DNA of 64,000 nt from an uncultured Clostridia bacterium. GTDB taxonomy: Bacteria > Bacillota > Clostridia > Christensenellales > UBA3700. Below are positions 1 through 17,709 of this stretch, in pieces. The notes beneath the pieces were generated by a model. The model worked only from the letters and a program-made list of their open reading frames with translations. It was not told where the DNA came from and did no database searches. The translations under genes were made by a program, and so were the position numbers. The stretch's first letter is position 1; each line of letters starts with the position of its first letter. The stretch is taken from the NCBI GenBank assembly GCA_947246685.1, contig CAMXSN010000002.1:21485-85484 (forward strand). Reading direction: 5' to 3'.

Positions 1-1
1 T

Positions 2-82
2 ACAACTAATCGTGTCGACGGAGAAAAAGGTGGAAACGGATATTACGGAAGTAAAGGCGCTGAAGGAAACGACGGCATTTAA
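2..82 (+). CDS. 3' end of a gene truncated by the window edge; collagen-like Gly-X-Y tail
   Basis: Frame is open from the window edge to TAA at 80-82. It translates ...VDGEKGGNGYYGSKGAEGNDGI* with six consecutive G-X-Y triplets. Same strand as the downstream surface-protein genes. Confidence 0.35.
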   Translation, partial: TTNRVDGEKGGNGYYGSKGAEGNDGI

Positions 83-114
83 TATAAAAATAAAAAACAT
101 ATTGAGGTGTTAAA

Positions 115-1920: not shown

Positions 1921-1956
1921 GTTTTGCGGAATTTAGGATAATAGAGTATCAAAGTA

Positions 1957-4900: not shown

Positions 4901-5427
4901 ATAATAACTACATTGTTTTTACTGTTGAAAACGCCGTTGAATTTGCTGTTTTTACAGATTTGAATCTGACTTGGCTTTGGGTCAGTTTGGGGCTAGTCAG
5001 CGTTATCATTATCGTTGTTATTGCTGTAATTTTAATGCGCAGAAAAAAACGTCGACGTGTTAATAAAGTTTTGGAATCGACTAATCTTCAAGATGAAATA
5101 CATTCTCATAAGGTTAATACGGAAAATAGTGTAAACGATTTTCCAGAAACAGAGCATCCGAATAGTATACACAGTGATGGGGCATACAACACTTCTTTTT
5201 ATTTTGACGGTGTATTTTGCTTATCTTATGAATGGTTTATAAAAAGTCTAAGTTTTAAGACGGTTGCTAAACAGAGTCGTATTTGCGCTGGAGATAATGG
5301 CGCGATCTTATTAAAGGAATCGATTTCAAGAGATACTATTTATTGGCAGGGCAAGCGATATAGAGTTAATTCAAAACAATATGATGCATTAATCGAAAGA
5401 GCAAAGGAGGCTATGCGTGAAAGTTAA
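1957..5427 (+). CDS. large membrane-anchored surface protein: GLUG-like repeats + MBG (YDG/YNG-type) repeats + C-terminal TM helix and cytoplasmic tail
   Basis: 1156-aa ORF with an N-terminal hydrophobic signal. GLUG-like motifs are present (GGLIGY, GGIAGY, GGVTGS, GGIAGN, GGIVGN). There are at least five repeats of the form F/L-Y-Y/N-G-x-x-Q/H-x-P ... N-(A/N/R)-N-Y-x-L. A TM segment WLWVSLGLVSVIIIVVIAVILM is followed by RRKKRRR and a tail of about 130 aa. Confidence 0.85.
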   Translation: MMKAAKIIIFIFIIISVIVVGDNIILADDYCAYAQMQNENDASARTINNFSDLAAIASDVNGGKYDGYYGLTINLACDLDIGDDCRSFDSGSGWIPIGTTTYPFKGTFNGNGYSISGLYINRPNSENVGLFGVANANATIENLEVDGTTVGNNYTGGLIGYSQAKIDNCVSCISVSAQNDTLHIGGIAGYNLGKISKSKNYGKVSVGFSTFVGGVTGSNLGTIDLCFNEGEIISSNSVVGGIAGNNAGNIGICMNSGKVVGKASVGGIVGNNQNLINNVFSRCTVESVNGTAGGIVGSNEAVGNVTCCVAVCTVNGMDDIASVCGYNMGVVENSFFDDCISTAPIVNGLAAENSKGLTTRLLVHEDSLINKEKLLSLNVNVDGIWVKRKSVDGKFFYPELKYFYENEVDISTRFSEGICSLPSAEDVELEKSEFDYNGECHYIVVKVNEICLELGQDYNVRYSDNINSGKHNANIEFSGIYAGIVEKEFCINKSLLEVEWDEDAFYYDGHEHRPKLRIVSGLINNDNIEFEYNAVKSVNVNEYEITAQLSDNSLINRNYELPITIGKYRILQAPLTIGWTDESFVYNGQVQFPKAHVLTGKVEDENISIIYEYFDNINAGEQTIKACLAQTDINANYTLDANPYTYLIEQKPLDLIWDDDALYYNGEAQFPKVKSVIGTVNDDIVELIYSDCSNNINADTDRKYIVSVKLSDIEVNNNYILSGNKHSYVINKTKLVVDWWDTPLIYNGKPQCPNYFIESGIIGKEEIIVEYSDYSANINACEDDVYQIEIALADNLINANYFLSQTVRSYGIRKADFDPNKDVEFDSKVFGYDGVVKSIFIEGVLPYGVSVEYENNGKTDIGQYTVTAIFSIDADNYNPLITKILSATLSIAQMAFYDSKSDITAIKKGDAIYGLTIGIDRLEKTSFNKTGKKLLKAYKSSFSEGTVEYRIPVDKELIQGGNLNVLYKTVSGEIIGADYVIDNNYIVFTVENAVEFAVFTDLNLTWLWVSLGLVSVIIIVVIAVILMRRKKRRRVNKVLESTNLQDEIHSHKVNTENSVNDFPETEHPNSIHSDGAYNTSFYFDGVFCLSYEWFIKSLSFKTVAKQSRICAGDNGAILLKESISRDTIYWQGKRYRVNSKQYDALIERAKEAMRES

Positions 5428-8400
5428 AAACTTATTACCTATTATTGTATTGTTGCTGATATCAAGTTTAGTTTGTTTATTTTCCGCATGCAAAGAAGTG
5501 GAGGAGCAAGGAAATGGCAAAGACGTTGAAAATTTTACAAGTTATTGCGTAACATTCAATTTAGGAGACGATTCCTTTACCGTATATAGTAATAATAAAA
5601 CGGGAAAAGTCGATAAACCAGCCGACCCTCAACGAAGTGGTTTTACATTTGCAGGTTGGTATACAACAGTAGATTCTGGAAATATATTTAATTTTGACAG
5701 TATTATTGTAGAAGATACGAATATTTATGCAAGATGGGATAAAAATCCTAACAAAATCAGATTTGAAGGAAATGGGAGCATTTCCGGAACGATGCCGGAT
5801 ATGATTGTAGAGGGGAATACTCCGACAAAATTACCGTTAAATAATTTTTTTAGAGAGGGATATGATTTTATTGGTTGGTCAGATATTGCAAACGGTAGCG
5901 TTAAGAATAAAGATGGCGGATGGTTTTATATGGAAGAAGGGATAGTTACTCTCTTTGCATGTTGGCAACCTAAAAAATATAATGTCGTAATAGATAACGA
6001 AAATGGCGAAGACACGCAAAAAATCGTGGCAACATTCGGCGAATTTTTGCCTCTGTTAAAAATGCCAATAAAGATCGGATACGTTTTTTCGGGATATTAT
6101 TCACAAAAAGATGGAAACGGGGATAAATATATTGATTCATCAATGCAGGGATGTAAAAAGTATTTATTAGCGAACGAAGAAATAACTTTGTTTGCAAAGT
6201 GGATTGAAGCCAAAAACATTATCAATTTTGACGGTAACGGCAATACTGGAGGAAGCACGTTGTGTTTGAGCGCTAAGTCTCACGAGGAAGTTTATTTGCC
6301 GGAATGCGGATTTACCCGCATAGGTTACACATTTATAGGTTGGAACGAATTATCGGATCTAAGCGGCAAAACTTATAAGGTTGGAGACAAATTTGAGATG
6401 CCTGCAAGTAGCGAGCCCATAGTATTGTATGCGGAATGGGTGAATAATAATTATAAAATAGTTCTAGACGATAACTTTTCTGGCGAATATTACGAATTTG
6501 AAATTTCTTATGACGTTGAAATAGAATTGAGGGAAAATACTTATATCAGATACGGATATACTTTTGTGGCATGGAATGACAAAAGCGACGGCTCGGGCAA
6601 TTATTATCAAGACAGGCAAACTATAATAAATTTAACCGAAGAAGCAAATGGAATAATAAGGTTGTTCGCAATTTGGAAGCCAGTTACGGTGCTTGTGCTT
6701 TTTAATAAGTCGGGAGGCAAGGGCGGAACAAGCAGCGCTAATATCACATTTGGCACACAGTTTCCGTTGATTGCCGCGCCTACAAAGGAGGGGTATATTT
6801 TCGGAGGGTATTATGCACAAGAAAACGGAAATGGTAATGAGTATTTAGATTCCCAGCTAGTTCCTATAAAAGTTTCCGATTTAGGGGCAGACGGCATCGA
6901 AGTCTATGCGAATTGGATTCCCAAAGAAAATACGCTGATGCTGTATCCTAACGGCGGCGTTGGGGACATAATAAGTATTGAGACCAAGACTGATGAAGTT
7001 ATTAATTTATATGATTATAGTTTCTATAAAATAGGATATACGCTTATCGGTTGGAATACAAAGGACAATGGCAACGGAGATTTTTATTCTTATGATTCGA
7101 ATTATGTTACTATAGCAAGCAATAATATTATAAAGTTGTATGCCGTTTGGGTTGCAAAATCGGTGATAGTTAAATTTAACGGAAATGGAAGCACTTCGGG
7201 AAACAATGAAGATGAATCTGGATATTGCGATAATGAAATAACTTTGCCGAATTGCGGGTATACAAGAGTGGGATATAAGTTTATTGGATGGAGCAGAACG
7301 AAAAATGGAGACGACGCTCTTCTCCAGCCGAATGCATCATATAAAATCGAGGCGTTGGATAGCGGTCTTATTGAATTCTTTGCTATGTGGGACGTCCAAT
7401 ATTATACCGTTAATTATCTATTAAACGGCGGCGTAAATTCGGCTTATAATCCGGTTAAATATACCTATTTAAGCGGTGATATCGTATTGGATATTCCAAC
7501 CAAAAGAGGGTATGAATTTGTCGGTTGGTATGAGGATGAAGAATTTTTGTCTAAGGTCACCGCGATACCTTCCGGCAGCTTTGGAGACAAAACTTATGTA
7601 GCACAGTGGAATAAAATCACATACAAAATTTTTTATATACTCAATGGGGCAAATGTAGAAAACCCTAATATAATTAATGAGTACGATATAGAAACAGAAA
7701 CCTTTTACCTAAAAGATCCTAAGAAACCCAATTATAATTTTGAGGGATGGGCAGAAGGTAACGTTGTTGAAAAAGGTAGTACGGGAAATAAAACTTTTAC
7801 CGCGCAGTGGAGCGGAGTAAGTTATAGTATAACGTATGTTTTGGACGGCGGCGTTAACGGAGACGGGAATCCGGGAACGTATATGTCGGATAGCGATCAA
7901 ATCGTCCTAAAGAGTCCCACTAAATTAGGATATGTATTTACTGGTTGGACTTGCGTAGATATGGGCATTAATACGCCTACTATGCCAGTAAAAATAGAAA
8001 AAAATAGTAGTGGCGATAGGACTTTTGTTGCACATTGGGATGTTATAAAGTATAGCATCTCTTATGATTTGAACGGTGGGGAGAACTCGGATAAAAATCC
8101 GACGGACTACGATATCACTGATGAAATACTATTAAGTGATCCAACTAAAATTGGGTACAATTTCGATGGCTGGCGAGAAGGTGCATTAGTTGTACAAGGC
8201 AGCACGGGAAATTTGAAGTTTACGGCAGAATGGTCTCCAATAAATTACGAAATATCGATAATTTACGATAAGTCTTTGGAATTGCAGTCAAAAGTAATTA
8301 AATACAATATTGAGAGCAAAGACATTTTGATAAGCGTAGATCCATCTATTGATTGCGGTTACAGTATTCAAGTCGGAGAAGAAATTGAAAGTGTAGTAGT

Positions 8401-8776
8401 ATCGAATAAAAACGGATATATTCTATCCGGATGGTATGAAAATGATAATGAAGGGGATGTTATATCATCATATTTAATTACAACAGGTACTATTGGGGAT
8501 AAGACGATAACGGCGAAATGGGAAATTATAATGTATACGATTGAGTATGATGTTGAGGATGATGCCGTATTTGAAATAGAAAATCCCAATTATTACAATA
8601 TACAATCCGATACAATAGAATTACAACGTCCGACGAGAGAAGGATATATATTTGTGGATTGGGTTGATGAGAATATGGAAGCGGTAAAAATCATCCCGTC
8701 GGGAAGTATTGGAAATATTAAATTAAAGGCAATATGGATATTGGATGAATCTGCGTCCGGTTCGGAGCCGACATAA
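5417..8776 (+). CDS. surface lipoprotein made of about 14 Listeria-Bacteroides (InlB B-repeat / Flg_new) repeats
   Basis: 1119-aa ORF with a GTG start preceded by AAGGAGG. It overlaps the stop of the upstream gene. The signal ends LFSAC. The motif G-Y-x-F-x-G-W recurs (GFTFAGWYT, GYDFIGWSD, GYTFIGWNE, GYKFIGWSR, GYEFVGWYE, GYVFTGWTC, and others). Confidence 0.9.
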   Translation: MKVKNLLPIIVLLLISSLVCLFSACKEVEEQGNGKDVENFTSYCVTFNLGDDSFTVYSNNKTGKVDKPADPQRSGFTFAGWYTTVDSGNIFNFDSIIVEDTNIYARWDKNPNKIRFEGNGSISGTMPDMIVEGNTPTKLPLNNFFREGYDFIGWSDIANGSVKNKDGGWFYMEEGIVTLFACWQPKKYNVVIDNENGEDTQKIVATFGEFLPLLKMPIKIGYVFSGYYSQKDGNGDKYIDSSMQGCKKYLLANEEITLFAKWIEAKNIINFDGNGNTGGSTLCLSAKSHEEVYLPECGFTRIGYTFIGWNELSDLSGKTYKVGDKFEMPASSEPIVLYAEWVNNNYKIVLDDNFSGEYYEFEISYDVEIELRENTYIRYGYTFVAWNDKSDGSGNYYQDRQTIINLTEEANGIIRLFAIWKPVTVLVLFNKSGGKGGTSSANITFGTQFPLIAAPTKEGYIFGGYYAQENGNGNEYLDSQLVPIKVSDLGADGIEVYANWIPKENTLMLYPNGGVGDIISIETKTDEVINLYDYSFYKIGYTLIGWNTKDNGNGDFYSYDSNYVTIASNNIIKLYAVWVAKSVIVKFNGNGSTSGNNEDESGYCDNEITLPNCGYTRVGYKFIGWSRTKNGDDALLQPNASYKIEALDSGLIEFFAMWDVQYYTVNYLLNGGVNSAYNPVKYTYLSGDIVLDIPTKRGYEFVGWYEDEEFLSKVTAIPSGSFGDKTYVAQWNKITYKIFYILNGANVENPNIINEYDIETETFYLKDPKKPNYNFEGWAEGNVVEKGSTGNKTFTAQWSGVSYSITYVLDGGVNGDGNPGTYMSDSDQIVLKSPTKLGYVFTGWTCVDMGINTPTMPVKIEKNSSGDRTFVAHWDVIKYSISYDLNGGENSDKNPTDYDITDEILLSDPTKIGYNFDGWREGALVVQGSTGNLKFTAEWSPINYEISIIYDKSLELQSKVIKYNIESKDILISVDPSIDCGYSIQVGEEIESVVVSNKNGYILSGWYENDNEGDVISSYLITTGTIGDKTITAKWEIIMYTIEYDVEDDAVFEIENPNYYNIQSDTIELQRPTREGYIFVDWVDENMEAVKIIPSGSIGNIKLKAIWILDESASGSEPT

Positions 8777-8917
8777 CAATATAAGCCGAATTTGCGTGTT
8801 AATTCTGCCTAATGAAACAACTACCATGTTTCATTATCTTGGATATTACATAGAAGGCTTAAAATAATCAAAAACTCAATAAGTAATATTATGATATAAA
8901 CTCAGGAGATAATACAT

Positions 8918-11719
8918 ATGAAAATTAAAGTTTTTCTAGCCTCATCGATCACAGAATTTGAAAGTGATCGTATGAGTTTTGCCATTTATTTGAATAAACT
9001 CAACGCAATATTTGCCGAACAATATGGCGTTTCGATTACTCCTTTTATTTGTGAAACGGCCGATCATTCAGTTAATAAAAACGGCCGAAAACAAGACGAA
9101 TATAATCAAGAAATTGCTGATAGCGATATGGTTATCTTCTTACTGGGGAATAATTTGGGAGAATTCACAAAAGAGGAATTTTGCTTTTCTTGCAACAAGC
9201 TGAAAGAGAATAGCCGACCGAAAATTTATGTTTATTTCTGTAATAAAGGGAATTGTTCCGACGACATTGCTGATTTTAAGAAAGTTCTCGAAACCGAATA
9301 TCAACATTATTACGATACGTTTGAGTACATAGATACAGTCAAGCTTAGCACGTTATTTAATATTCGTCGGTTGGCTTTTCCTTCAATGAAAGTAGAAATT
9401 AAAGGCGACTATTTCTTTGTCGACGGAAAAATGATTTCGCAAGACATATTATCACCGACTAATATACAGGCTTTCAATAATAATCAAGAAATTAATGAAC
9501 TCAAAATAAGATATGATAAATCCGACGAAAATAATAAAAAAATTATAAAAAGAAGAATAAATGAGATACAAAATGATATTTTAAGTGTTTTTCTGGACTT
9601 AAGCAATTATACATTTAACGGGGAATATAACTGTAGAGTGACTGAAGCTGTTAGGTTATTGGAAAACGGTGATAAAGCCAAAGCTATAGATGTATTAGAT
9701 AACGCGCATAACCGAGATAGGCGAGCAGCGAGAAAAAGAGTGCGCCAAATGGAAACACTTGATGATATTAGCAGAATAAAATTCGAAATAAATATTCGCA
9801 AAACGGATAAAGAATATTCGAAAATCGATGATCTATATCGGGAAGCCGTTGAATATGCATTAGAGGATCGTATCGGATTAATGGTATTATACGATTATTC
9901 GTCATGGCTGGCTTCTATTCATCGGGTAGATGAAGCAGTAAAAATTGCAGTACAATTAAATGATATTTTGATTAATTACACACAGGATGAATTGAAAGAT
10001 GACAACATATCGAAGATAGATTTAGCAAATATAAAGATACTTCTAGGCGATTTGTATAGGAGAATATTGCAATTTAATAAAGCATATTCTGCTTACCGTG
10101 AAGCATTTTCTTTTTGGGAGGATTGCATTGATTCGTTTATGGGAGTTCAAGTATGGACATTGGCGGAGTATATTGAGGAAGTTGCTTGTTTCATTCAAAA
10201 TGTTCCTGATTCGGTTTCTGATATTGTTGATCCATTAAATTACGCTAAAGGCGTACGTGTTGGGCAATTAGCCACAGATATAAGAAGACTTAAAAGAAAA
10301 TTGCAAGATAAAAATCAAATAGATTTTAGCACCCTAGAATCTAATCCTATTTACAAAAGAGGAAGTCAATCGATTGCATTATTTGAAGAAAGCTTATCTG
10401 AAAAGTTCAAATCAGATGTAATTTCCGATAGCATTACTTTTGTACTGGATAATCCTATTTGCGAATCTTATATTCTTTTGTTGTTTGCCTTATGTATAAA
10501 GCAATCTGTTCTAGATAAAACGAAAGACTATTCAGGTTATGCTAGAGGATTATCAATGACAATATTAAATATTGCAACAATACAAAATATAATGCGCCGT
10601 TACGAAGATGCCGAAGATGGGGCGAATTTAGCTATAAGTTATTTAACTAAATTTCCCGAGATTAATACCGATATGGATATAAATCATGATTTTCTTCAAG
10701 CATACGCGGTTTTATATACTAGCTATATTAATCGTGATAACATGATTAAAGCGCAGAAATGTAGGAATAATATGTTAAAATACGGTGAAAAAATTTATAA
10801 CCAATATCCAAGAGAATTTGCCTTAGACTATACAGATATGCTATTTCATTTGGGTATTGATAGTCTTCACGCTTCAAACTTTTTTGCATCGGTCGAAATA
10901 TTTGAAAAAATTATTGGCATATATGAAAGTATAGACGCGGACCGGGAAATAGATAGGACACAGTATTTAATTCCATTTTTAATATCTAATCTCAGATGGA
11001 TAGAGGCGTATTCACAATATTCTCATATTACAGAAAAATTTCAGTCTGATTTTAATATTATAAATGATCACTTTATAAAGGCTATAAGTTTATTTGACGC
11101 TATAAATGCAAGCGATGACTTTGATGAGCTAAGTAAATCTAATTGCGTTCTTGAAATAAATTGGTGTAATTTATTATATTTGCCTCCTATAGGGGATATG
11201 AATGCATGTGTAGATATAATAGAACAAGCTTTTGAAATATGTATGAGTTTAAGCTTGGAGGATAATTTTTGCACATATTATCAATGGACAAAAACTTTAG
11301 AAGTAGTAACAATGTTTATTAATTGCTGTTGTGATATTGAACTTGAAAAATCGAAATGGCTTAATAATTTATACTCGATATTAGTGTTGCCGATTGATTT
11401 TATTATAAATAATGCGAAACTGGATCCCTTGCGTTTAATTCCTTCCCATTTCAGACATTTAACTGATTATGCTTTTCTAAATTCTTCAGATGTTGATTTT
11501 TTGACAAACTATAAAACCGTATTGTTTTTGTTTTATGAATCAATAATTGATTGTGAGGATGATGTTGGAGAAGTAAAACAACAGTTGATTGAAAAAATTA
11601 GCAATTCATATAGCGAGATTATAAAACAAGCAAATTCTCTTGAGAATAGGATATGTATACTTTCTATATTAGAAAAAGAAAGGGACAAAATTAAAAAGAA
11701 TTCTAATAGTACCATTTGA
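8918..11719 (+). CDS. large cytoplasmic protein: DUF4062/TIR-like N-terminal domain + coiled coil + TPR-like helical repeats; no NTPase motif
   Basis: 933-aa ORF with an AGGAG RBS. The N-terminus reads KVFLASSITEFESDR ... ADSDMVIFLLGNNLGEFTKEEF ... PKIYVYF, an alternating beta/alpha pattern with the acidic motifs I associate with DUF4062/TIR-like folds. The remaining 800 aa or so are helix-rich and repeat-like. I saw no GxxxxGK[ST] anywhere in the protein. Confidence 0.75.
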   Translation: MKIKVFLASSITEFESDRMSFAIYLNKLNAIFAEQYGVSITPFICETADHSVNKNGRKQDEYNQEIADSDMVIFLLGNNLGEFTKEEFCFSCNKLKENSRPKIYVYFCNKGNCSDDIADFKKVLETEYQHYYDTFEYIDTVKLSTLFNIRRLAFPSMKVEIKGDYFFVDGKMISQDILSPTNIQAFNNNQEINELKIRYDKSDENNKKIIKRRINEIQNDILSVFLDLSNYTFNGEYNCRVTEAVRLLENGDKAKAIDVLDNAHNRDRRAARKRVRQMETLDDISRIKFEINIRKTDKEYSKIDDLYREAVEYALEDRIGLMVLYDYSSWLASIHRVDEAVKIAVQLNDILINYTQDELKDDNISKIDLANIKILLGDLYRRILQFNKAYSAYREAFSFWEDCIDSFMGVQVWTLAEYIEEVACFIQNVPDSVSDIVDPLNYAKGVRVGQLATDIRRLKRKLQDKNQIDFSTLESNPIYKRGSQSIALFEESLSEKFKSDVISDSITFVLDNPICESYILLLFALCIKQSVLDKTKDYSGYARGLSMTILNIATIQNIMRRYEDAEDGANLAISYLTKFPEINTDMDINHDFLQAYAVLYTSYINRDNMIKAQKCRNNMLKYGEKIYNQYPREFALDYTDMLFHLGIDSLHASNFFASVEIFEKIIGIYESIDADREIDRTQYLIPFLISNLRWIEAYSQYSHITEKFQSDFNIINDHFIKAISLFDAINASDDFDELSKSNCVLEINWCNLLYLPPIGDMNACVDIIEQAFEICMSLSLEDNFCTYYQWTKTLEVVTMFINCCCDIELEKSKWLNNLYSILVLPIDFIINNAKLDPLRLIPSHFRHLTDYAFLNSSDVDFLTNYKTVLFLFYESIIDCEDDVGEVKQQLIEKISNSYSEIIKQANSLENRICILSILEKERDKIKKNSNSTI

Positions 11720-11898
11720 CCTAAAGGTTGTACGAAAGTTCCACTAAAATTCCAATGGCTTTCTATATAGAACCTAATAATTGAATAGTTGCGTTCTAAA
11801 TCTGAACTTTTTATGATCAGCTCAGCAGTGCGAAAGCGCAGATTTTGTTTTCAAGATTTTGCAAAACACTGTAATTTGAGCGCAAAGTTTTGATATGT

Positions 11899-11934
11899 GC
11901 GAGCGACGACAATTGCGTCGCCGCACTATTTTTT
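11899..11934 (+). terminator. putative rho-independent terminator downstream of the 933-aa gene
   Basis: GCGAGCGACG-acaattg-CGTCGCCGC forms a 9-bp GC-rich stem with one bulged A, followed by ACTATTTTTT. Confidence 0.45.
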
Positions 11935-12420
11935 GTGCTCGTTCTGCGAATTATACTTACCATTAAGCTCTATTACGATACTTTTGCATGTTGGGCTATC
12001 GTCGCGTTCGACGTATATTTCAAATTTATGATAAATTCTGAATTTTTTTCCGCAACGATTTCCCATATGTTTCGTTTGTCCGTGCTAACTTTGGCAATGT
12101 TTTATTCAATAATTTGATTGAGGAAATATTTGTTTTTTTATGACCATTCAGATTAATCTTTGATAAAAATTTAAACAAACTTTTTCCCATGGGTTCGTTA
12201 AATTTTTAATGGCGGATGCAGAGGCTTTAAAGCCACGTGCCATTAAAGACAGACGGTTTTCAAGAATAAAGTTTAATGGATTTAATGAAAGACTTTATTA
12301 GAGATTATTATGAAATATTACTACAATAATTAAAGACTATAAAAAGCGCTAGACTCTAGTTTAATAAAAAAAGAATGTAAGAAATCCCCAAGATAATCAT
12401 TAAAAATCATAGTCATAATA

Positions 12421-12449
12421 TTGATATTCAATGTTTGTTATGATATAAT
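12421..12449 (+). promoter_or_regulatory. sigma-A type promoter with extended -10 for the helicase-nuclease gene
   Basis: TTGATA, a 17-nt spacer, then TATAAT, with TG at the extended -10 position (TGATATAAT). The -10 hexamer ends 19 nt upstream of the ATG at 12469. Confidence 0.55.
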
Positions 12450-12468
12450 TAACTAAATTATTTGGGTA

Positions 12469-15400
12469 ATGATTATGCAGAAGATTATAGAGAATTTTGT
12501 TAATCAAAAAAGCAATGGCTTAATGTTACTAGATTTGCCAACAGGTTTTGGTAAAACGACTAGCGTAATAAAGTTTATAGATAAATTCATAAACAGTAAT
12601 ACGCAATCGGTTAAGCGAATTTATTTTGTAACAAATCTAAAGAAGAATCTTCCAGAAAAACGATTAAAAAAATCGTTGGGAGATAATTATGATAAATATT
12701 GTTTGTATCTAAAGCCATATTGGGAGTCGGTAACTGAAAAATGGAAGTTAACGCAAATTACGAATCCTGAAGTTTTGAATGCGGAAGAATATAAGAATCT
12801 TAACTTGGATATTGAAACGCTTTATAAATTTAGAGAAGATAATGAAAAACTTAGGAAAGCTAAAGATTTCAATCAAGAATATGTGAAGAATAAACGATTG
12901 ATTCAGTCTTATGAGCAAAAGATTGAAAGGGATACCGAAGTTAAATTTAGACAATTCATTAAAAAGACATTCTTCTATAATCAAACAGTGTATGAGAAAG
13001 ATAAGTTTTTAAAGAATAACCAATGGATTGCCGAGCTTTATCCTGCATGCAAATTAAAAGAAGAGAATATTAAAGTAGTATTGTCAAGTACGAAGAAATT
13101 TTTTAGTCCAATGGATACATTTTCTAGAATGCCGTTTTACATATACAATAACGAAGCATTAACGGAGAATAGTATTACATTTATTGATGAGTTTGATACG
13201 ACGAAAGAAACGTTATTAGATCAAATCATTGATGACGGCTTAAAATTTGATATCGACATTTTTGCGCTATTTCTAAATATCTATTATTCTTTAACAAATC
13301 TTTCATTTCCTGTCACACTAATGAGACTTAGTGATTATAGAAAAGGAAAGATTGAAAAAGAAGAATGGGTGGATATAAAAGAGTTGATAGAAGAACTGAA
13401 AAAGAAATTTCAGCAAGTTTATGAAGATTACCAGTTGCAATTTTTAGTAAAAAGTAAGGGCTTTGAAGAAAAGAAGGCATTTATTTTTGATGATGGCAAA
13501 TCTTTGAATATATTTAGCGATAAATCCAAAAAGGTGTTGAAGGCTACATACGACAAAGATGAAAATATTAACTCATTACTTGCGGTTGCAAAAAGTTATA
13601 AAGGTCAAGAAAAAGAGAGACTTGACAATATTTTGCTCGATGTGAAATTCGCTATAAATAGTTTTATAAATAAATCGGCCTACATATCGAAAAATTACAC
13701 AGATTATAAAAATCAATCTTTAAAGGGATATAAAATTAAATATTCATTTGAGGAATCTGCATTGACCATATTGTCAGCATTTAATGTTGCAGATGAATAT
13801 AGACAATATCTCTTAGATCGCATTATTGATAGAAACGCGAATATGAAACTAGATTTGCACGTAGAACCAGAGTTGGAGTTTATGAATAAAGGGTTCGAAT
13901 ATACTGAACTTGAGGATGATCATGAACACGATTTGCAAACAAAATGTCATGCATTTAAATTTGATACGACACCAGAGGCAATAATTGCTAAACTATGTGT
14001 AAAATCTAGAGCAGTTGGAATTTCAGCGACTGCATCGATAGAGACGGTAATTGGCAATTATGATATTGAATATTTCAAAAAAGTTTTACAAGACGACTTC
14101 TATTCAATTTCAGATAGCGATTATGCTAGGTTAGAGCAAGAGTTTATGGATGAGCAGAAAACATATGAAGAGAATAATATTACTATTCATACGGCTCCTA
14201 TAGATGGCGATAAAGTCTTTTCCGATAAAGAGAATTGCATTCAAGTTATTACGTCGATTTTTAATGAGAAGAATAGAGAATATTATTTAAATTATCTTGA
14301 AAATGATACAGAGCATTATCATTCTTATATTATTTGTAAACTTCTAAAATTGTATACTCATGTTGCGGCAAGTAGAGACATATATTCATTTCTGGCATTC
14401 TTAAATTCGTTTCCCAAAACTCAAGATAAGGCAGACAGACATCAGTTTTTAAATAAGGATTTTTTAGAGAGGGCAATAAGCGATCTTATTAAGCAAAATG
14501 GTTATGAGAATGCGCCTATAATCCATATTGTGAGGAGCGATAACTTTGAGGAAGAATTTGCGAAGATAAATGAAGAATTGGCCGAAGGTAAAAAGGTATT
14601 TGTATTAAGCACATATAGGACTATGGGCAATGGACAGAATATCCAATATAAGATTCCAGATATTGAGAGCATAAAATCAAACGTCATTATCAACAACAAA
14701 GATAGATTGGAAAAAGATTTCGATGCGATATACCTTTTAACTCCAACTAATTTGGTGCAAATGTTATCCTATGATTTGGAGAACAGAGTAAATAATTTGT
14801 GCAAATATTTATTTCAACAGGAATACTTGTATAAGAAGAATTATATATCATTTGATCAAAGAAAAATAAATATTGAATCTGGTTTTAGAAAAACGTTTTA
14901 TGGAGATAGGACAACGTCTTCATATAGAAGGAATGAAGACATATTATTACATACTGCTCAGTTAACAATTCAAGCTGTAGGTAGAATATGTAGATGTCAA
15001 AATAAGAACAAAAACATTTATATTTTTTACGACCAAGAAATTCTTAATCGGTTAAATCTTATTAAAGACGATTTAACCAATGGCAAGAAGATTTTTAATA
15101 AAGAGTTTAGGGTATTGTTGGAACAACCTGTACATGATGAGCGTATAGTATTCGATCATTATACGCTTAGGAATAAGAAAGCTTATGGTTTTCTAACAAA
15201 AATGTCAAAGGAGGTTAGGAAATCTAAAGAGAACGTTAGTGAATGGCAGGAATTGCGGAATTTTGTATTAAAACATCCAACAGCTAATAACATTCCGGAT
15301 AAATATGCATTTTTGTATTTTAAGTTTGATACGCCTGTCTATGGGTATGCATATAGATTTAATAATAATTATGAGTTTGTGAATTTCACGGTCAACAATA

Positions 15401-15915
15401 CATATGAAAAGACTCAAGTGTCAGCAGAGGGTAGTGAACTAATAAGGCTTATGAGTATTCCGGAGTTAAGGGAATATTTTGCAAGAAATGGATACGCCAC
15501 TAATTTTGAGCGCGGAATCTATGTGATGTCGGAATCTTTGTATAAGCAAATTTATAAAGGTGCGCTCGGCGAGGCTGTAGGAAGATATATAATTTCAAAG
15601 GCATGTGGTTGCGATTTGGAGGAGTTGGACAATTATCAGCAGTATGAGGCTTTTGATTTCAAAATTAATAATATTTATTTTGATTTTAAGCACTGGGATT
15701 ATTTTATTAAAGATAATGATAGTTATAGTAAATTTATTGAGTGGAAACTTAAAACAGTCCAAGGGGCAAAAGTAGTTGTTGCCAATATTTTTCAACGTGG
15801 CAATCATAAAATACGAGAATCGGTTGATGGTAAGATAATTCAAATACCATACTTAATAAATGATGACAATGAAATAGATTATAAATATCTAGATATTTTG
15901 CTAGACTTAATATAA
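12469..15915 (+). CDS. SF2 (DExD/H, SNF2-flavoured) helicase fused to a C-terminal PD-(D/E)xK-like nuclease module
   Basis: 1148-aa ORF. Helicase motifs: I LDLPTGFGKTT (nt 12544-12561), II FIDEFD (about 13186-13197), III-like GISATAS, V-like LSTYRTMGNGQNIQ, and VI QAVGRICR (14971-14994). The C-terminus reads GALGEAVG ... YEAFDFKINNIYFDFKHW (15646-15696). Confidence 0.85.
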   Translation: MIMQKIIENFVNQKSNGLMLLDLPTGFGKTTSVIKFIDKFINSNTQSVKRIYFVTNLKKNLPEKRLKKSLGDNYDKYCLYLKPYWESVTEKWKLTQITNPEVLNAEEYKNLNLDIETLYKFREDNEKLRKAKDFNQEYVKNKRLIQSYEQKIERDTEVKFRQFIKKTFFYNQTVYEKDKFLKNNQWIAELYPACKLKEENIKVVLSSTKKFFSPMDTFSRMPFYIYNNEALTENSITFIDEFDTTKETLLDQIIDDGLKFDIDIFALFLNIYYSLTNLSFPVTLMRLSDYRKGKIEKEEWVDIKELIEELKKKFQQVYEDYQLQFLVKSKGFEEKKAFIFDDGKSLNIFSDKSKKVLKATYDKDENINSLLAVAKSYKGQEKERLDNILLDVKFAINSFINKSAYISKNYTDYKNQSLKGYKIKYSFEESALTILSAFNVADEYRQYLLDRIIDRNANMKLDLHVEPELEFMNKGFEYTELEDDHEHDLQTKCHAFKFDTTPEAIIAKLCVKSRAVGISATASIETVIGNYDIEYFKKVLQDDFYSISDSDYARLEQEFMDEQKTYEENNITIHTAPIDGDKVFSDKENCIQVITSIFNEKNREYYLNYLENDTEHYHSYIICKLLKLYTHVAASRDIYSFLAFLNSFPKTQDKADRHQFLNKDFLERAISDLIKQNGYENAPIIHIVRSDNFEEEFAKINEELAEGKKVFVLSTYRTMGNGQNIQYKIPDIESIKSNVIINNKDRLEKDFDAIYLLTPTNLVQMLSYDLENRVNNLCKYLFQQEYLYKKNYISFDQRKINIESGFRKTFYGDRTTSSYRRNEDILLHTAQLTIQAVGRICRCQNKNKNIYIFYDQEILNRLNLIKDDLTNGKKIFNKEFRVLLEQPVHDERIVFDHYTLRNKKAYGFLTKMSKEVRKSKENVSEWQELRNFVLKHPTANNIPDKYAFLYFKFDTPVYGYAYRFNNNYEFVNFTVNNTYEKTQVSAEGSELIRLMSIPELREYFARNGYATNFERGIYVMSESLYKQIYKGALGEAVGRYIISKACGCDLEELDNYQQYEAFDFKINNIYFDFKHWDYFIKDNDSYSKFIEWKLKTVQGAKVVVANIFQRGNHKIRESVDGKIIQIPYLINDDNEIDYKYLDILLDLI

Positions 15916-16043
15916 TATTATTAGCAACTGAAGTTAAATTTGTAAATGATTAAGGAAAATGACAGTCTATGTTTCTTTCTAGCCAAAGTACATCGATATC
16001 CCATTTTAATGAAAAAAAGATTAATTAGAGGCAATAATATCAA

Positions 16044-17255
16044 TTATTCACTAGGTGAATTATCAATCACTTGAAAATTCTTAATAAAAGTACTTATTAT
16101 TTCATCGTATTGTTTAAAAAATTCATCTATTTCTTTAAGATCTTTAGGTTTAATAATAGAAAGCATAGATAAGCCTTCTATAGATTGTAATTTAGTCAAA
16201 ATATTAGCAAGTTGATTATTTGTTCGGAATAGCATATTGTAATAAAATAAATGCTTTAACAATAGTGGCTTGCAATCTTTAGTGAATTCTAATATGTGTT
16301 TAGCTATCAAAGATGTATGTTTTTTAATGATAGAAATATAATTGGTTAGATTTTCCATTGCACATGTGAAGTGTGTGTTTAAAGTTGACAATGCTGATGA
16401 CGTTAAACTTGATAAAAATAGAAACTCATTTCGTTTAAGTAGCTCATCGCACAGGTCTAAAGTTCTATGAGTAATTCTATTAGCTATGATAATATTTAAT
16501 TCTGAAAAAGACTTAGATTCGTTAATGATGAACTGTAAAACAGACTTAGCTTGCTCTGTATTATCTTGGCAAAGGGCTTCTAAAAATAACATATCTATGG
16601 TCTCAAATTCGTTTGAGTAGGTTTTGGAAATATAATTATCGATTTTCGCGATTTGATCTTCGTTTAGATTTGGTATCGCAGTAAGAGTCGCATTTTCAAA
16701 AACGCAAATATAATCAGTATTCTTAATCTTAAATCGAACCTTACTTTCATAATAATAATATACGGGGTCTAGGGAATAGAGCCATATTGCATAAACAATT
16801 AAATAGATAAAACATAAAGATAGATATATTGCTGTAGCTATCATATTTTTATAGTCTTGCAAGATGAAATGATATATCCATAGAGAAGTATTTATAAATA
16901 TAAATAGCCAAGAATCTTTGCGATAATCAGCAATACGTGGGATACTTTTATGTATTTCTCTTAGGGTAATTCCAAGTACTTTTGTGTTCATTTCTTTTAA
17001 CAATGGAAGCAAGATTGAAATATATATGCCTAAAAGGGCGGTGGGTAACGCAACGAGCGCAATTGCCCAATTCTCGTTGCCTTTTATTGCATTCTCAAAA
17101 TTTGGCATCGCATATTCCGCAATTGCCAAGTATCCAATGAGGATAATCAAGCAAAATAGGAGCTTGAAAAATGGACCACTGAAAAACACCTCTGCCCGGC
17201 TAGTTGTTTTTTGCAATTTAATTAGTTTTCTCTTTATGCGTTTATAAGATTTCAT
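16044..17255 (-). CDS. hypothetical 4-TM membrane protein with a helical soluble domain of about 240 aa
   Basis: 403-aa ORF, very AT-rich. Four hydrophobic segments lie in the first 160 aa (FFKLLFCLIILIGYLAIA, WAIALVALPTALLGIYISILLPLL, WLFIFINTSLWIYHFIL, MIATAIYLSLCFIYLIVYAIWLY). I recognised no family. Confidence 0.7.
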   Translation of the reverse strand: MKSYKRIKRKLIKLQKTTSRAEVFFSGPFFKLLFCLIILIGYLAIAEYAMPNFENAIKGNENWAIALVALPTALLGIYISILLPLLKEMNTKVLGITLREIHKSIPRIADYRKDSWLFIFINTSLWIYHFILQDYKNMIATAIYLSLCFIYLIVYAIWLYSLDPVYYYYESKVRFKIKNTDYICVFENATLTAIPNLNEDQIAKIDNYISKTYSNEFETIDMLFLEALCQDNTEQAKSVLQFIINESKSFSELNIIIANRITHRTLDLCDELLKRNEFLFLSSLTSSALSTLNTHFTCAMENLTNYISIIKKHTSLIAKHILEFTKDCKPLLLKHLFYYNMLFRTNNQLANILTKLQSIEGLSMLSIIKPKDLKEIDEFFKQYDEIISTFIKNFQVIDNSPSE

Positions 17256-17343: not shown

Positions 17344-17432
17344 TGGCGGAAGCGAAGGGATTCGAACCCCTGTGGGCTTGCACCCAAATGCTTTTCAAGA
17401 GCACCTCGTTATGACCACTTCGATACGCTTCC
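17344..17432 (-). tRNA. tRNA-Ser (anticodon UGA), CCA encoded
   Basis: The minus strand reads GGAAGCG..GTGCT-CTTGAAA-AGCAT..long variable arm..AGGGGTTCGAATCCCTT-CGCTTCC-G-CCA. The cloverleaf has a TPsiC GTTCGAATC loop and a long extra arm, and it parallels E. coli tRNA-Ser(UGA). Confidence 0.9.
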
Positions 17433-17644
17433 ATGTGAATTATTAAGATTTTGTTGCGAAAATTTTCGACGTATTTCGTAGATATTTTCGCACGTTTCTA
17501 CGAATTTGCGGTCAATTTATAGATTTTATCGACCGTCTAGGTGTTGCCGATTTGCTACTAAACGTCAATTTTTCATCAACACAAATCAAGCATTTTTTGG
17601 AAGTTCATAAGTGGTCGAGTAGTGCTTGTAGAATTATTTTCTAG

Positions 17645-17709
17645 GTGCAACCCTATGGGGATGTTTTCCTTTCAAGACTACCTCGTTATGACCGCTTCGA
17701 TATGCTTCC
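17645..17709 (-). pseudogene. decayed tRNA-Ser fragment (5' half only)
   Basis: The minus strand reads GGAAGCATATCGAAGCGGTCATAACGAGGTAGTCTTGAAA and matches the first 40 nt or so of the intact tRNA-Ser with a few mismatches. The anticodon stem no longer pairs, and there is no T-arm or acceptor 3' strand. Confidence 0.6.

What the first reader, a model, noticed from the sequence alone, without database searches (positions are those of the whole stretch)
8918..17255. AT-rich three-gene island beside tRNA-Ser: candidate uncharacterised conflict/defence locus
Seen in the sequence: three large ORFs (933, 1148 and 403 aa) fill a stretch that looks clearly more AT-rich by eye than the spo0A, iol and ribosomal parts of the window. 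The stretch is wedged between surface-protein genes and tRNA-Ser(UGA) at 17344-17432, with a decayed tRNA-Ser half nearby. ORF1 has an N-terminal DUF4062/TIR-like module, about 800 aa of helical repeats and no P-loop. ORF2 has a full SF2 helicase motif set plus a C-terminal PD-(D/E)xK-like motif. ORF3 is a 4-TM protein. Inference: a long repeat protein with a small Rossmannoid effector-type head, sitting next to a helicase-nuclease, is the architecture typical of anti-phage systems. From memory, this gene combination does not match Hachiman, Gabija, Zorya, Druantia, DISARM, Shango, Azaca, Mokosh, Hna, Nhi or Hhe. No methyltransferase is present, so it is not a classical R-M system, and no integrase or transposase is present. 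Caveat: ORF1 and ORF2 are separated by about 750 bp containing a terminator-like hairpin and a strong promoter, so they are probably separate transcripts.
Basis: partly seen in the sequence, partly recalled or inferred. Interest (0 to 1): 0.85.

Follow-up and report, generated by a model that had tools for sequence, protein, structure and literature searches.

The report
Defence hotspot with Argonaute-less DdmD nuclease
The "three-gene system" is really three unrelated neighbours in a variable defence hotspot of a gut Clostridia genome: a TIR-like NADase-TPR protein of a defence family first described in 2026, a DdmD-type anti-plasmid helicase-nuclease from a lineage that lacks its usual Argonaute partner, and a backbone membrane protein.

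Summary
In detail: the three ORFs, low GC, tRNA-Ser(UGA) and a decayed tRNA half are all present. The interpretation as one new three-gene system does not hold.

- **ORF2** is a full-length homologue of DdmD, the helicase-nuclease of the DdmDE anti-plasmid system (PDB 9ix4, E=7e-53). All helicase and PD-(D/E)xK catalytic residues are intact.
- **ORF1** is a DUF4062 (TIR-like NADase) plus TPR protein. It belongs to the single-gene defence superfamily described in 2026 as Swarozyc/Evangelion.
- **ORF3** is a lineage-restricted membrane protein that diverges at the same rate as the backbone.

The three genes have separate histories. An identical ORF1 is followed by Hachiman and Gabija in a sister strain. 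ORF2 alone is 93% identical in a genome whose backbone is about 74% identical. No other ORF2 relative sits next to an ORF1 relative.

The interesting residue is ORF2's lineage. Twenty-four loci in two clades (each 100% bootstrap) have no DdmE within ±7-10 kb and no other conserved partner. All 58 loci of the other clades that have enough flank carry DdmE directly downstream. ORF2 is under strong purifying selection (dN/dS 0.04-0.08). It is probably an Argonaute-independent DdmD, which the literature searched here does not describe.

The parts
8918..11719 (+). ORF1, 933 aa: DUF4062 (TIR-like NADase) plus TPR protein, a candidate stand-alone defence gene
   Evidence: Pfam DUF4062 E=1.2e-4 for residues 4-86. 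13 of 26 family members hit PF13271 and 19 of 26 hit TPR models. AF2 model pLDDT 84, pTM 0.70. Only about 5 full-length relatives exist.
8918..9382 (+). ORF1 N-terminal five-stranded beta-alpha-beta domain (residues 1-155). Family-invariant residues are F6, S9, S10, R18, E86, E87, F88, P101, I103, F120 and D139. E86/E87 (9173-9178) are the candidate catalytic glutamate(s).
   Evidence: Domain model pLDDT 90, pTM 0.87. Foldseek matches: NDT-like BcmB TM 0.69-0.71 and TIR domains TM 0.56-0.62. Invariant columns.
9392..9616 (+). ORF1 small three-stranded beta unit (residues 159-173) and helical stalk (184-233). This is the same order of elements as published for KpSwz.
   Evidence: Secondary structure of the models; published description of KpSwz.
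9632..11713 (+). ORF1 TPR-like helical solenoid (residues ~239-932), the presumed sensor or auxiliary region
   Evidence: Foldseek top hits are Ctr9, LGN, SPY and Tom70 TPR solenoids; TPR Pfam hits across the family.
11900..11936 (+). Hairpin plus T-run (GCGACGACAATTGCGTCGC...TTTTTT), a likely terminator after ORF1
   Evidence: Read directly from the sequence. The scan tool flagged a weaker site at 12000-12013.
12264..12265 (.). Synteny breakpoint. Window 1-12264 is 99.6% identical to sister-strain locus L006, which then continues with Hachiman, an integrase and Gabija instead of ORF2.
   Evidence: blastn; gene content of L006.
12421..12449 (+). Promoter-like site TTGATA-17-TATAAT with a TG extension, 20 nt upstream of ORF2
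   Evidence: 11 of 12 matches.
12445..15959 (+). Single-gene mobile cassette: the stretch that is 93% identical to L011, while the flanking backbone is 73-75% identical
   Evidence: blastn. ORF2 dS is 0.285 while spo0A dS is saturated between the same two genomes.
12469..15915 (+). ORF2, 1148 aa: DdmD-family SF2 (XPD/DinG-like) helicase fused to a PD-(D/E)xK nuclease, from a DdmE-less clade
   Evidence: PADLOC DdmD E=5e-35. PDB 9ix4_A (LcDdmD) E=7e-53 and VcDdmD E=3e-37, near full length. No DdmE within the 64-kb window.
12544..12561 (+). ORF2 Walker A motif GFGKTT (K29, equivalent to VcDdmD K55). Other helicase motifs: DEFD at 13186-13197, SATA at residues 519-522, QAVGRICR at residues 835-842.
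   Evidence: Invariant in 18 clade members and in all clades.
15571..15690 (+). ORF2 nuclease active site: E1035, E1060, D1063, D1072 and K1074, aligned to VcDdmD E1059, E1082, D1085, D1100 and K1102
   Evidence: Alignment to solved DdmD chains; published catalytic residues; invariant in all clades.
16044..17255 (-). ORF3, 403 aa: membrane protein with an N-terminal hydrophobic region and a C-terminal helical region. It is a backbone gene, not part of either defence gene.
   Evidence: Hydropathy. Only 6 relatives. Diverges at the backbone rate and is syntenic with tRNA-Ser and spo0A in L011 and L094. One relative (L096) lies elsewhere, without DdmD.
17344..17432 (-). tRNA-Ser(UGA), the right-hand landmark of the hotspot
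   Evidence: ARAGORN; Rfam 52.9 bits. The same tRNA flanks the hotspot in L011.
17670..17709 (-). Decayed copy of the tRNA-Ser 5' half (90% over 40 nt), 277 nt upstream of the tRNA on the spo0A side

Best explanation
The stretch is a variable defence-gene hotspot. It lies between surface-protein genes and tRNA-Ser/spo0A in a gut Christensenellales-like Clostridia genome, and it holds independent genes rather than one system.

(1) ORF2 is a DdmD-family helicase-nuclease from a lineage that has no Argonaute (DdmE) partner. Shown here: it is homologous to solved DdmD over nearly its full length, all ATPase and nuclease catalytic residues are intact, it is under purifying selection, it was transferred as a single-gene cassette, and it has no conserved neighbour. 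Inferred: it acts autonomously. Published work shows that DdmD alone degrades ssDNA and nicks plasmids, and that its autoinhibited dimer opens on forked DNA. I therefore propose that ORF2 loads directly on ssDNA or fork structures of invading DNA (conjugative transfer, rolling-circle or phage replication intermediates), translocates 5'->3' using ATP, and cuts with its PD-(D/E)xK domain, without a DNA guide.

(2) ORF1 is a separate single-gene candidate of the DUF4062 TIR-like NADase family. Inferred from Swarozyc and Evangelion: the TPR solenoid senses a phage component, relieves autoinhibition of the N-terminal domain, NAD+ is depleted and infection aborts.

(3) ORF3 is a lineage-specific backbone membrane protein of unknown role. 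It belongs to neither defence gene.

The confidence given is for the whole statement. By component: ORF2 is a DdmD-family protein, about 0.97; the three genes are not one system, about 0.9; ORF2 works without any Argonaute, about 0.6; ORF1 is a DUF4062-type NADase defence gene, about 0.65.
For: ORF2 identity:
- PADLOC DdmD E=5e-35; PDB LcDdmD E=7e-53 and VcDdmD E=3e-37.
- The five nuclease residues and the Walker A lysine align to the published catalytic residues and are invariant.

No partner:
- A DdmE HMM finds DdmE directly downstream in all 56 genomic and 2 viral loci of the other clades that have enough flank. It finds none within +/-7-10 kb of 17 clade-N and 7 clade-X loci, and none in the 64-kb window.
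- Neighbour clustering finds no other conserved family.
- Clades N and X each have 100/100 bootstrap support.

Functional and mobile:
- dN/dS is 0.081 and 0.044.
- The cassette is 93% identical against a 73-75% identical backbone.
- One relative (L091) is a lone insertion among housekeeping genes.

Defence context:
- Neighbours include Hachiman, Gabija, BREX, type I/II/IV R-M, AbiTii, ApeA and NERD.

Independence of ORF1:
- An identical ORF1 with the same left flank is followed by Hachiman. The 53%-identical relatives have VWA and kinase neighbours.

ORF1 family:
- (DUF4062 plus TPR); models; fold matches; published biology.

DdmD activity without DdmE in vitro:
-.
Against: - Only +/-7-10 kb around each relative was examined, so an unlinked DdmE, ApsB or other pAgo elsewhere in these genomes is not excluded.
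- For V. cholerae DdmD, DdmE is needed to act on dsDNA plasmids, so autonomy would require a change in regulation that I could not identify. There are no clade-specific indels. The DdmE-docking bundle maps to a stretch that is poorly conserved in all clades.
- No sequence feature explains self/non-self discrimination.
- ORF1's own Pfam score is below the curated cut-off, its fold matches are weak (E~1e-4), and no direct alignment to KpSwz or Eva01 was possible.
- One distant DUF4062-TPR relative sits among housekeeping genes, not defence genes.
- Nothing here tests a phenotype.
Confidence: 0.6

Rival explanations
1. One reading: ORF1, ORF2 and possibly ORF3 form one new multi-gene defence system, with a TIR-like/TPR sensor-effector working alongside the helicase-nuclease.
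For: ORF1 and ORF2 are adjacent and on the same strand. The same arrangement recurs in a second sample, L008, at 99.5% identity. That is the same strain, so it is not independent evidence.
Against: - An identical ORF1 is followed by Hachiman, an integrase and Gabija in L006/L007, with the breakpoint at 12264 inside the spacer.
- No ORF1 relative lies near any of more than 85 DdmD relatives, and no DdmD lies near the 53%-identical ORF1 relatives.
- ORF2 is 93% identical in L011, where ORF1 is absent and a type I HsdR lies upstream.
- A terminator-like hairpin and a separate promoter lie between the two genes.
- ORF3 diverges at the backbone rate.
Confidence: 0.04
2. ORF2 is a canonical DdmD effector that still depends on a guide-loaded Argonaute (DdmE, ApsB or another pAgo) encoded elsewhere in the genome.
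For: VcDdmD needs DdmE to attack dsDNA plasmids. The whole ApsA/DdmD family is described as tied to Argonaute-like partners. Only +/-7-10 kb of each locus was searched.
Against: - In 58 of 58 informative canonical loci DdmE abuts or overlaps DdmD, so unlinking would be exceptional.
- The DdmE-less state is clade-wide in two clades with 100% bootstrap.
- ORF2 moves between divergent genomes as a one-gene cassette. That would strand it without a matched partner, yet it stays under strong purifying selection.
- No DdmE is present in the 64-kb window.
Confidence: 0.17
3. ORF2 is an inactive remnant of a DdmDE operon that lost DdmE and is decaying.
For: DdmE is absent. The locus is AT-rich and accessory.
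Against: - The reading frames are full length across 36-95% identity.
- Every catalytic residue is invariant.
- dN/dS is 0.04-0.08.
- A strong promoter-like site lies upstream.
- No DdmE fragments lie beside any of the 24 loci.
Confidence: 0.03
4. ORF2 is not a defence gene. It would be an accessory DNA-repair or replication helicase-nuclease (DinG/XPD-like with a nuclease domain) serving the host or a mobile element.
For: The helicase core resembles DinG/XPD. One relative (L091) sits among housekeeping genes next to an Ogt-type methyltransferase.
Against: - Distribution is patchy, with horizontal transfer.
- Most neighbourhoods are defence islands: R-M, BREX, Gabija, AbiTii, ApeA.
- The closest characterised relatives are all anti-plasmid effectors.
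Confidence: 0.07

Closest known systems
DdmDE anti-plasmid system (Vibrio cholerae VC1771/VC1770; Lactobacillus casei LcDdmDE; PDB 9EZX/9EZY, 8U0U, 9IX4)
   Same: ORF2 is homologous to DdmD over nearly its full length and has the same size (~1150 aa). It has the same XPD/DinG-like SF2 helicase motifs and the same five PD-(D/E)xK catalytic residues. It sits in a defence island. One clade member (L002) even has a divergent WYL-regulator gene, as V. cholerae ddmDE does.
   Different: There is no ddmE (long-C Argonaute) in the window or beside any member of ORF2's clade. The gene moves alone. Several residues that are near-invariant in DdmE-linked DdmDs vary freely here: window positions 918, 967 and 1027.
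ApsAB (E. coli ST38 anti-plasmid system) and the wider ApsA/DdmD helicase-nuclease family
   Same: It is the same superfamily of helicase plus PD-(D/E)xK proteins with GFGK(S/T), DExx, SAT and QAVGR motifs. These genes are carried on genomic islands, sometimes at tRNA genes.
   Different: The family was described as two classes, each tied to an Argonaute-like partner (ApsB or DdmE). ORF2's clade has neither. ApsA is larger (nuclease motif at ~1420-1435). ORF2 hits the DdmD model. ApsA itself was not compared here.
Swarozyc (KpSwz) and Evangelion (Eva01-04): single-gene DUF4062 TIR-like NADase defence systems (bioRxiv 10.64898/2026.05.01.722283 and 10.64898/2026.06.25.731849)
   Same: ORF1 has an N-terminal DUF4062-type domain with an invariant aromatic residue (F6) and invariant glutamates (E86/E87). 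Their spacing is similar to Eva01 F11/E87, and KpSwz has its catalytic Glu at E97. The domain is followed by a small beta-sheet, a helical stalk and a large divergent auxiliary region. ORF1 lies next to known defence systems in a sister strain.
   Different: The auxiliary region is a ~700-residue TPR solenoid. TPR is not mentioned in the text of either preprint. ORF1's full-length family is tiny, about 5 clusters. No direct sequence comparison with KpSwz or Eva01 was possible, so the lineage within the DUF4062 superfamily is unassigned. No activity data exist.
Single-gene helicase-nuclease defence proteins (Hna, Nhi) and Cas3
   Same: Functional analogy only: one polypeptide couples ATP-driven translocation to DNA cutting. 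This is how I propose ORF2 works without a partner. Published authors compare DdmD to Cas3 recruited by Cascade.
   Different: ORF2 matched no PADLOC v2.0.0 model other than DdmD at E<=0.1. That library's exact content was not checked; from memory it includes Hna and Nhi. The resemblance is one of mechanism, not of family.

Membership tests
DdmDE system | DdmD component: ~1150-1190-aa protein homologous to V. cholerae / L. casei DdmD over its full length | tested here: met
   PDB 9ix4_A E=7e-53 (query 183-1132 plus the N-terminal Walker A stretch); VcDdmD E=3e-37 (288-1134). PADLOC DdmD E=5e-35.
DdmDE system | SF2 helicase ATPase site (Walker A Lys = VcDdmD K55; DExx box; motifs III and VI) | tested here: met
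   GFGKTT with K29, DEFD 240-243, SATA 519-522, QAVGRICR 835-842. These are invariant in the clade and conserved in all clades.
DdmDE system | C-terminal PD-(D/E)xK nuclease with VcDdmD E1059, E1082, D1085, D1100 and K1102 | tested here: met
   E1035, E1060, D1063, D1072 and K1074 align to them (residues) and are invariant.
DdmDE system | Adjacent ddmE gene (catalytically inactive long-C prokaryotic Argonaute), normally directly downstream | tested here: not met
   A DdmE HMM built from 56 loci finds nothing in the 64-kb window, even at E<=10, and nothing near 17 clade-N and 7 clade-X loci. It finds DdmE in 58 of 58 informative loci of the other clades. PADLOC gives no DdmE hit for ORF1 or ORF3.
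DdmDE system | Autoinhibited DdmD dimer released by DdmE or forked DNA; anti-plasmid phenotype | not testable with these tools
   This needs biochemistry, structure work and plasmid-stability assays.
DUF4062 TIR-like NADase single-gene defence (Swarozyc / Evangelion superfamily) | N-terminal DUF4062 (PF13271) domain | tested here: inconclusive
   ORF1 itself scores 22.6 bits, E=1.2e-4, just under the 24.7-bit cut-off. 13 of 26 aligned family members hit PF13271, with best E=4e-7. The weight of evidence favours membership, but the curated threshold is not reached by ORF1 alone.
DUF4062 TIR-like NADase single-gene defence (Swarozyc / Evangelion superfamily) | TIR/NDT-like five-stranded beta-alpha-beta fold, followed by a small beta-sheet and a helical stalk | tested here: met
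   Confident models (pLDDT 84 and 90) show strands at 2-9, 39-43, 71-76, 102-108 and 132-135, a beta unit at 159-173 and a stalk at 184-233, as described for KpSwz. Foldseek matches are weak (E~1e-4): BcmB NDT-like TM 0.69-0.71 and TIR RRS1 TM 0.62.
DUF4062 TIR-like NADase single-gene defence (Swarozyc / Evangelion superfamily) | Conserved catalytic glutamate (KpSwz E97, Eva01 E87) and N-terminal aromatic motif (Eva01 F11) | tested here: inconclusive
   F6 and E86/E87 are invariant in the family and lie at the start of the third helix of the model. Equivalence with E97/E87 rests on position and spacing only. No KpSwz or Eva01 sequence was available to align, and a profile search of PDB sequences found nothing.
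DUF4062 TIR-like NADase single-gene defence (Swarozyc / Evangelion superfamily) | Large divergent C-terminal auxiliary (sensor) region in the same polypeptide; acts as a single gene | tested here: met
   There is a ~700-residue TPR solenoid. ORF1 relatives have no conserved neighbour.
DUF4062 TIR-like NADase single-gene defence (Swarozyc / Evangelion superfamily) | NAD+ hydrolysis and abortive-infection phenotype | not testable with these tools
   This needs enzymology and phage assays.
   PADLOC v2.0.0 at E<=0.1 gives no hit for ORF1 or ORF3, and only DdmD for ORF2. Which of the listed systems that library models was not checked.
tRNA-targeted integrative genomic island | Integrase gene plus a direct repeat of the tRNA 3' end at the far boundary | tested here: not met
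   No integrase lies in 8.9-17.3 kb. The tRNA 3' end occurs only once in the window at up to 3 mismatches. The only tRNA-derived repeat is a 5'-half copy on the other side of the tRNA. The sister strain does carry an integrase in the same slot.

The most novel reading that the evidence does not exclude
Clades N and X of the DdmD family, about 20 of roughly 425 strong 50%-identity clusters and found in gut Bacillota, would be a third, Argonaute-free class of the ApsA/DdmD superfamily. In this reading they are autonomous, guide-independent single-gene helicase-nuclease defence genes. They would recognise invading DNA by its structure (ssDNA or forks) rather than by a DNA guide, and they would spread as one-gene cassettes. 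Because both clades sit near the base of the midpoint-rooted tree, the reading also allows that the effector came first and recruited an Argonaute later. The rooting is unresolved (N+X bipartition 23% bootstrap).
Probability: 0.5. Interest if true: 0.62.

Novelty: new variant of a known kind. Interest (0 to 1): 0.45.

Why it matters
DdmDE is the textbook case of a catalytically dead Argonaute recruiting a helicase-nuclease, in the way Cascade recruits Cas3. The related ApsAB family was described as always having an Argonaute-like partner. A well-supported, selectively maintained and horizontally mobile lineage of DdmD without any Argonaute raises a sharp, testable question: what substitutes for guide-based targeting and for release of dimer autoinhibition?

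Natural Argonaute-free and Argonaute-linked DdmDs also offer matched sets for mapping the residues that couple the effector to its sensor. Current annotation tools that require both genes will miss these loci. They are common enough in gut Clostridia to matter for plasmid ecology and for genetic tractability of these organisms.

Separately, ORF1 extends the newly described DUF4062 NADase defence superfamily to a long TPR-sensor architecture in Clostridia.

Tried and rejected
- **ORF1 as a divergent DdmE:** rejected. There is no PADLOC DdmE hit and no hit to the DdmE HMM. The model is a TIR-like domain plus TPR solenoid, not an Argonaute fold.
- **Another conserved partner of DdmE-less DdmDs:** clustering of all neighbours within +/-6 kb found none. 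Only sporadic families turned up: a 121-aa protein, Dcm methylases, integrases, a 416-aa protein in two loci, and HsdR. The ~415-aa gene directly after DdmD in L011/L094/L095 has no Pfam match and occurs only in that lineage.
- **Structural signature of DdmE loss:** there are no clade-specific indels. The published DdmE-docking bundle (Vc 603-633) maps to ORF2 ~580-610, which is poorly conserved in every clade, so no conclusion was possible.
- **tRNA half as an att site:** rejected. It is a 5'-half copy on the wrong side of the tRNA, and there is no 3'-end repeat.
- **Plasmid or phage carriage of ORF2's clade:** tblastn found only distant hits on 5 plasmids and none on phages. The two viral-contig hits are canonical DdmDE.
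- **Solved-structure relatives of ORF1:** no sequence hit with the protein or with an N-domain profile.
- **More ORF1 loci from metagenomes:** two alignments were too divergent for the tool and the third scan found nothing.
- **RNA families in the island:** only the tRNA.

Full report
**Observation.** GC falls to 0.28-0.33 across 9-17 kb, against 0.40-0.51 further right. The surface-protein genes to the left are also low (0.34-0.39), so the accessory region is wider than stated. tRNA-Ser(UGA) lies at 17344-17432 on the minus strand. A 40-nt, 90%-identical copy of its 5' half lies at 17670-17709. That copy is on the spo0A side of the tRNA, and the tRNA 3' end is not repeated anywhere in the window, so it does not delimit the island. 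The ORF1-ORF2 spacer carries a hairpin plus T-run at about 11900-11936 and a strong promoter-like site at 12421-12449.

**ORF2 is a DdmD.** PADLOC gives one hit, DdmD, at E=5e-35 over residues 303-1132. Against solved structures, ORF2 matches the chain deposited as DdmD in 9ix4, most likely the Lactobacillus casei protein of the Huang et al. preprint, at E=7e-53. It matches the Vibrio cholerae DdmD chains at E=3e-37, in each case over nearly the whole protein. Loeff et al. define the catalytic residues of VcDdmD as K55 (ATPase) and E1059, E1082, D1085, D1100 and K1102 (nuclease). In the alignment to the solved chains these correspond to ORF2 K29, E1035, E1060, D1063, D1072 and K1074. All of them are invariant in 18 clade members that are as little as 37% identical, and in every clade of the family.

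**DdmE is missing, and that is a property of the clade.** Canonical DdmD works with DdmE, an inactive long-C Argonaute that uses DNA guides to find plasmids and then recruits DdmD. I collected 80 genomic loci encoding ORF2 relatives, further loci from metagenome assemblies and two viral contigs. A DdmE profile built from 56 neighbours finds DdmE abutting or overlapping the 3' end of DdmD in all 56 genomic and both viral loci of the other clades that have enough flank. It finds nothing, even at E<=10, in the 64-kb window, in 17 loci of ORF2's own clade (N; 36-95% identity) or in 7 loci of a second clade (X; about 30% identity). In a tree of 83 proteins every DdmE-less protein falls in N or X. 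Each clade has 100/100 bootstrap support, while their union as one lineage gets only 23/100. One loss, two losses or an ancestral Argonaute-free state therefore all remain possible. Clustering all neighbours within +/-6 kb finds no alternative conserved partner. The ~415-aa gene that follows DdmD in the L011/L094 lineage has no family match and is confined to that lineage.

**The gene is maintained and mobile.** dN/dS is 0.081 between the window and L011, and 0.044 between L012 and L013. At the nucleotide level only 12445-15959, which is ORF2 plus a few dozen flanking bases, is 93% identical to L011, an uncultured Christensenella MAG. ORF3, the tRNA and spo0A are 73-75% identical. Synonymous divergence is 0.285 for ORF2 but saturated for spo0A. 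ORF2 has therefore been exchanged recently as a one-gene cassette between genomes of different species. Homology to more distant clade members also stops within about 35 nt of the gene ends. The neighbourhoods are mostly defence islands:
- integrase plus Dcm methylases and HNH;
- WYL regulator, BREX and an AAA_11/12 helicase;
- Gabija;
- type I HsdR, GmrSD, DpnII, Bsp6I and Eco57I;
- NERD, ApeA and MspI, AbiTii.

One member is a lone insertion among housekeeping genes. In a search of 1.84 billion cluster representatives the family has 425 members at E<=1e-30, of which about 20 belong to ORF2's clade.

**ORF1 is a separate gene of a family described in 2026.** Pfam DUF4062 matches residues 4-86 at 22.6 bits, just under its 24.7-bit cut-off. 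Thirteen of 26 aligned relatives hit it individually (best E=4e-7), and 19 hit TPR models. The AlphaFold model (pLDDT 84; N-domain alone pLDDT 90) shows a five-stranded beta-alpha-beta domain, a small three-stranded beta unit, a helical stalk and then a ~700-residue solenoid. The solenoid matches Ctr9, LGN, SPY and Tom70 TPR structures. The N-domain weakly matches the NDT-like glycosidase BcmB (TM 0.69-0.71) and TIR domains (TM 0.56-0.62). Osinski et al. show that DUF4062 is a TIR-like NADase. They describe Swarozyc, whose TIR-like domain is followed by a small beta-sheet, a stalk and an auxiliary domain that binds the phage portal, with catalytic E97. Ibarra-Chavez et al. describe Evangelion, single-gene DUF4062-plus-auxiliary systems with F11 and catalytic E87. 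ORF1's family-invariant F6 and E86/E87 fit this pattern by position and spacing. I could not align the published proteins directly, and a profile search of PDB sequences found nothing. Neither preprint mentions a TPR-type auxiliary region in its text.

**The three genes are not one system.** Window 1-12264 is 99.6% identical to L006/L007, and the match ends inside the spacer. There an identical ORF1 is followed by HamA plus a DEAD helicase (Hachiman), an integrase and Gabija. The 53%-identical ORF1 relatives are followed by VWA, a protein kinase and other genes, with no DdmD. L011 carries ORF2 at 95% protein identity in the same slot next to tRNA-Ser, but it has no ORF1 and has a type I HsdR upstream instead. 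ORF3 has six relatives in all. It is syntenic with the tRNA and spo0A at backbone-level divergence in L011 and L094, and one relative lies elsewhere without DdmD. The slot between ORF1 and ORF3/tRNA-Ser is thus a hotspot in which different defence cargos replace one another.

**Mechanism.** Shown here: ORF2 has an intact DdmD-type ATPase and nuclease, is under selection, has no partner nearby and is mobile as a single gene. From the literature: VcDdmD alone is a potent ssDNA nuclease but does not degrade dsDNA plasmid without DdmE. It nicks plasmids weakly, and its autoinhibited dimer opens on forked DNA. LcDdmD alone degrades ssDNA, nicks plasmids and unwinds 5'->3'. Inference: ORF2 acts on its own by loading on ssDNA or fork structures of incoming or replicating foreign DNA, then translocating and cutting. 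What replaces guide-based discrimination is unknown. Some positions that are near-invariant in DdmE-linked DdmDs (window 918, 967, 1027) vary freely in both DdmE-less clades. I could not tie them to the published DdmE interface, which maps to a poorly conserved stretch. For ORF1 the inferred mechanism is TPR-mediated sensing that releases a TIR-like NADase and causes abortive infection, by analogy with Swarozyc and Evangelion.

**Novelty and limits.** The ApsA/DdmD family has been described as two classes, each tied to an Argonaute-like partner. Full-text searches for DdmD with 'standalone' or 'homologs', and for 'DdmD-like', found no report of an Argonaute-free class. The main caveat is that I saw only +/-7-10 kb per locus, so an unlinked partner cannot be excluded. 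No phenotype was tested. I rate the locus as a new variant of a known kind, with moderate interest.

Noticed in passing
window 17433-17709: A 90%-identical copy of the 5' half of tRNA-Ser lies 277 nt upstream of the intact gene. The layout fits a small remnant of an element that once inserted into the tRNA and carried its own 5' half, or a partial tandem duplication.
   Followed up: partly
L006 13740-22414 (sister strain; replaces window 12265 onward): In a strain whose left flank, including ORF1, is 99.6% identical, the slot holds Hachiman (HamA plus a DEAD helicase), an HTH_17 protein, a tyrosine integrase and Gabija (GajB/GajA-like) instead of ORF2.
   Followed up: yes
L013 13630-18420 and L061 9268-17424: The same cassette (a 121-aa protein, ~380-aa and 200-aa unknowns, and two Dcm-type methylases) flanks DdmD genes from two different DdmE-less clades (68% vs ~30% identity to ORF2). 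This suggests that DdmD variants are swapped within one kind of mobile element.
   Followed up: no
L002 6803-7795 (-): A WYL-domain regulator gene is divergently placed upstream of a DdmE-less DdmD. This mirrors the HTH-WYL gene VC1772 upstream of ddmDE in V. cholerae, so regulation may be conserved even where DdmE is absent.
   Followed up: no
L011 7415-8671, L094 5365-6603, L095 2281-3498: A ~415-aa gene with no Pfam match sits 9 nt after DdmD in the sister lineage and is absent from the window. The window keeps about 30 nt of homology to its start (15928-15959), which suggests a deletion in the window lineage.
   Followed up: partly
ORF2 residues 918, 967, 1027 (window 15220-15222, 15367-15369, 15547-15549): These columns are Trp (96%), Asp (95%) and Asn (100%) in 56 DdmE-linked DdmDs, but vary in both DdmE-less clades. 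They are candidate coupling residues, but were not mapped onto a structure.
   Followed up: partly
P0007 (NCBI MAG, Anaeroplasmataceae bacterium, partial protein): A 90%-identical partial copy of ORF2 is annotated in an Anaeroplasmataceae MAG. That is either transfer across bacterial classes or a binning error.
   Followed up: no
L030 13452-18094: In one canonical locus DdmE appears as a 180-aa fragment directly after DdmD, with the main 597-aa part 2.3 kb further on, as if the gene were interrupted by an insertion.
   Followed up: no
L097 and L098 (IMG/VR viral contigs): Two contigs classified as viral carry complete canonical DdmD plus DdmE pairs.
   Followed up: partly
window 11817-12243 (-): Three short overlapping ORFs in different frames on the minus strand of the ORF1-ORF2 spacer look like a frameshifted gene remnant just left of the synteny breakpoint at 12264.
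   Followed up: no
window 115-8776: Three large co-directional genes precede ORF1: 601 aa with a GLUG motif; 1156 aa with a weak C-terminal Phage_30_3 match; and 1119 aa with nine Listeria-Bacteroides repeats. The 53%-identical ORF1 relative is also preceded by a large LRR surface protein (L009).
   Followed up: no
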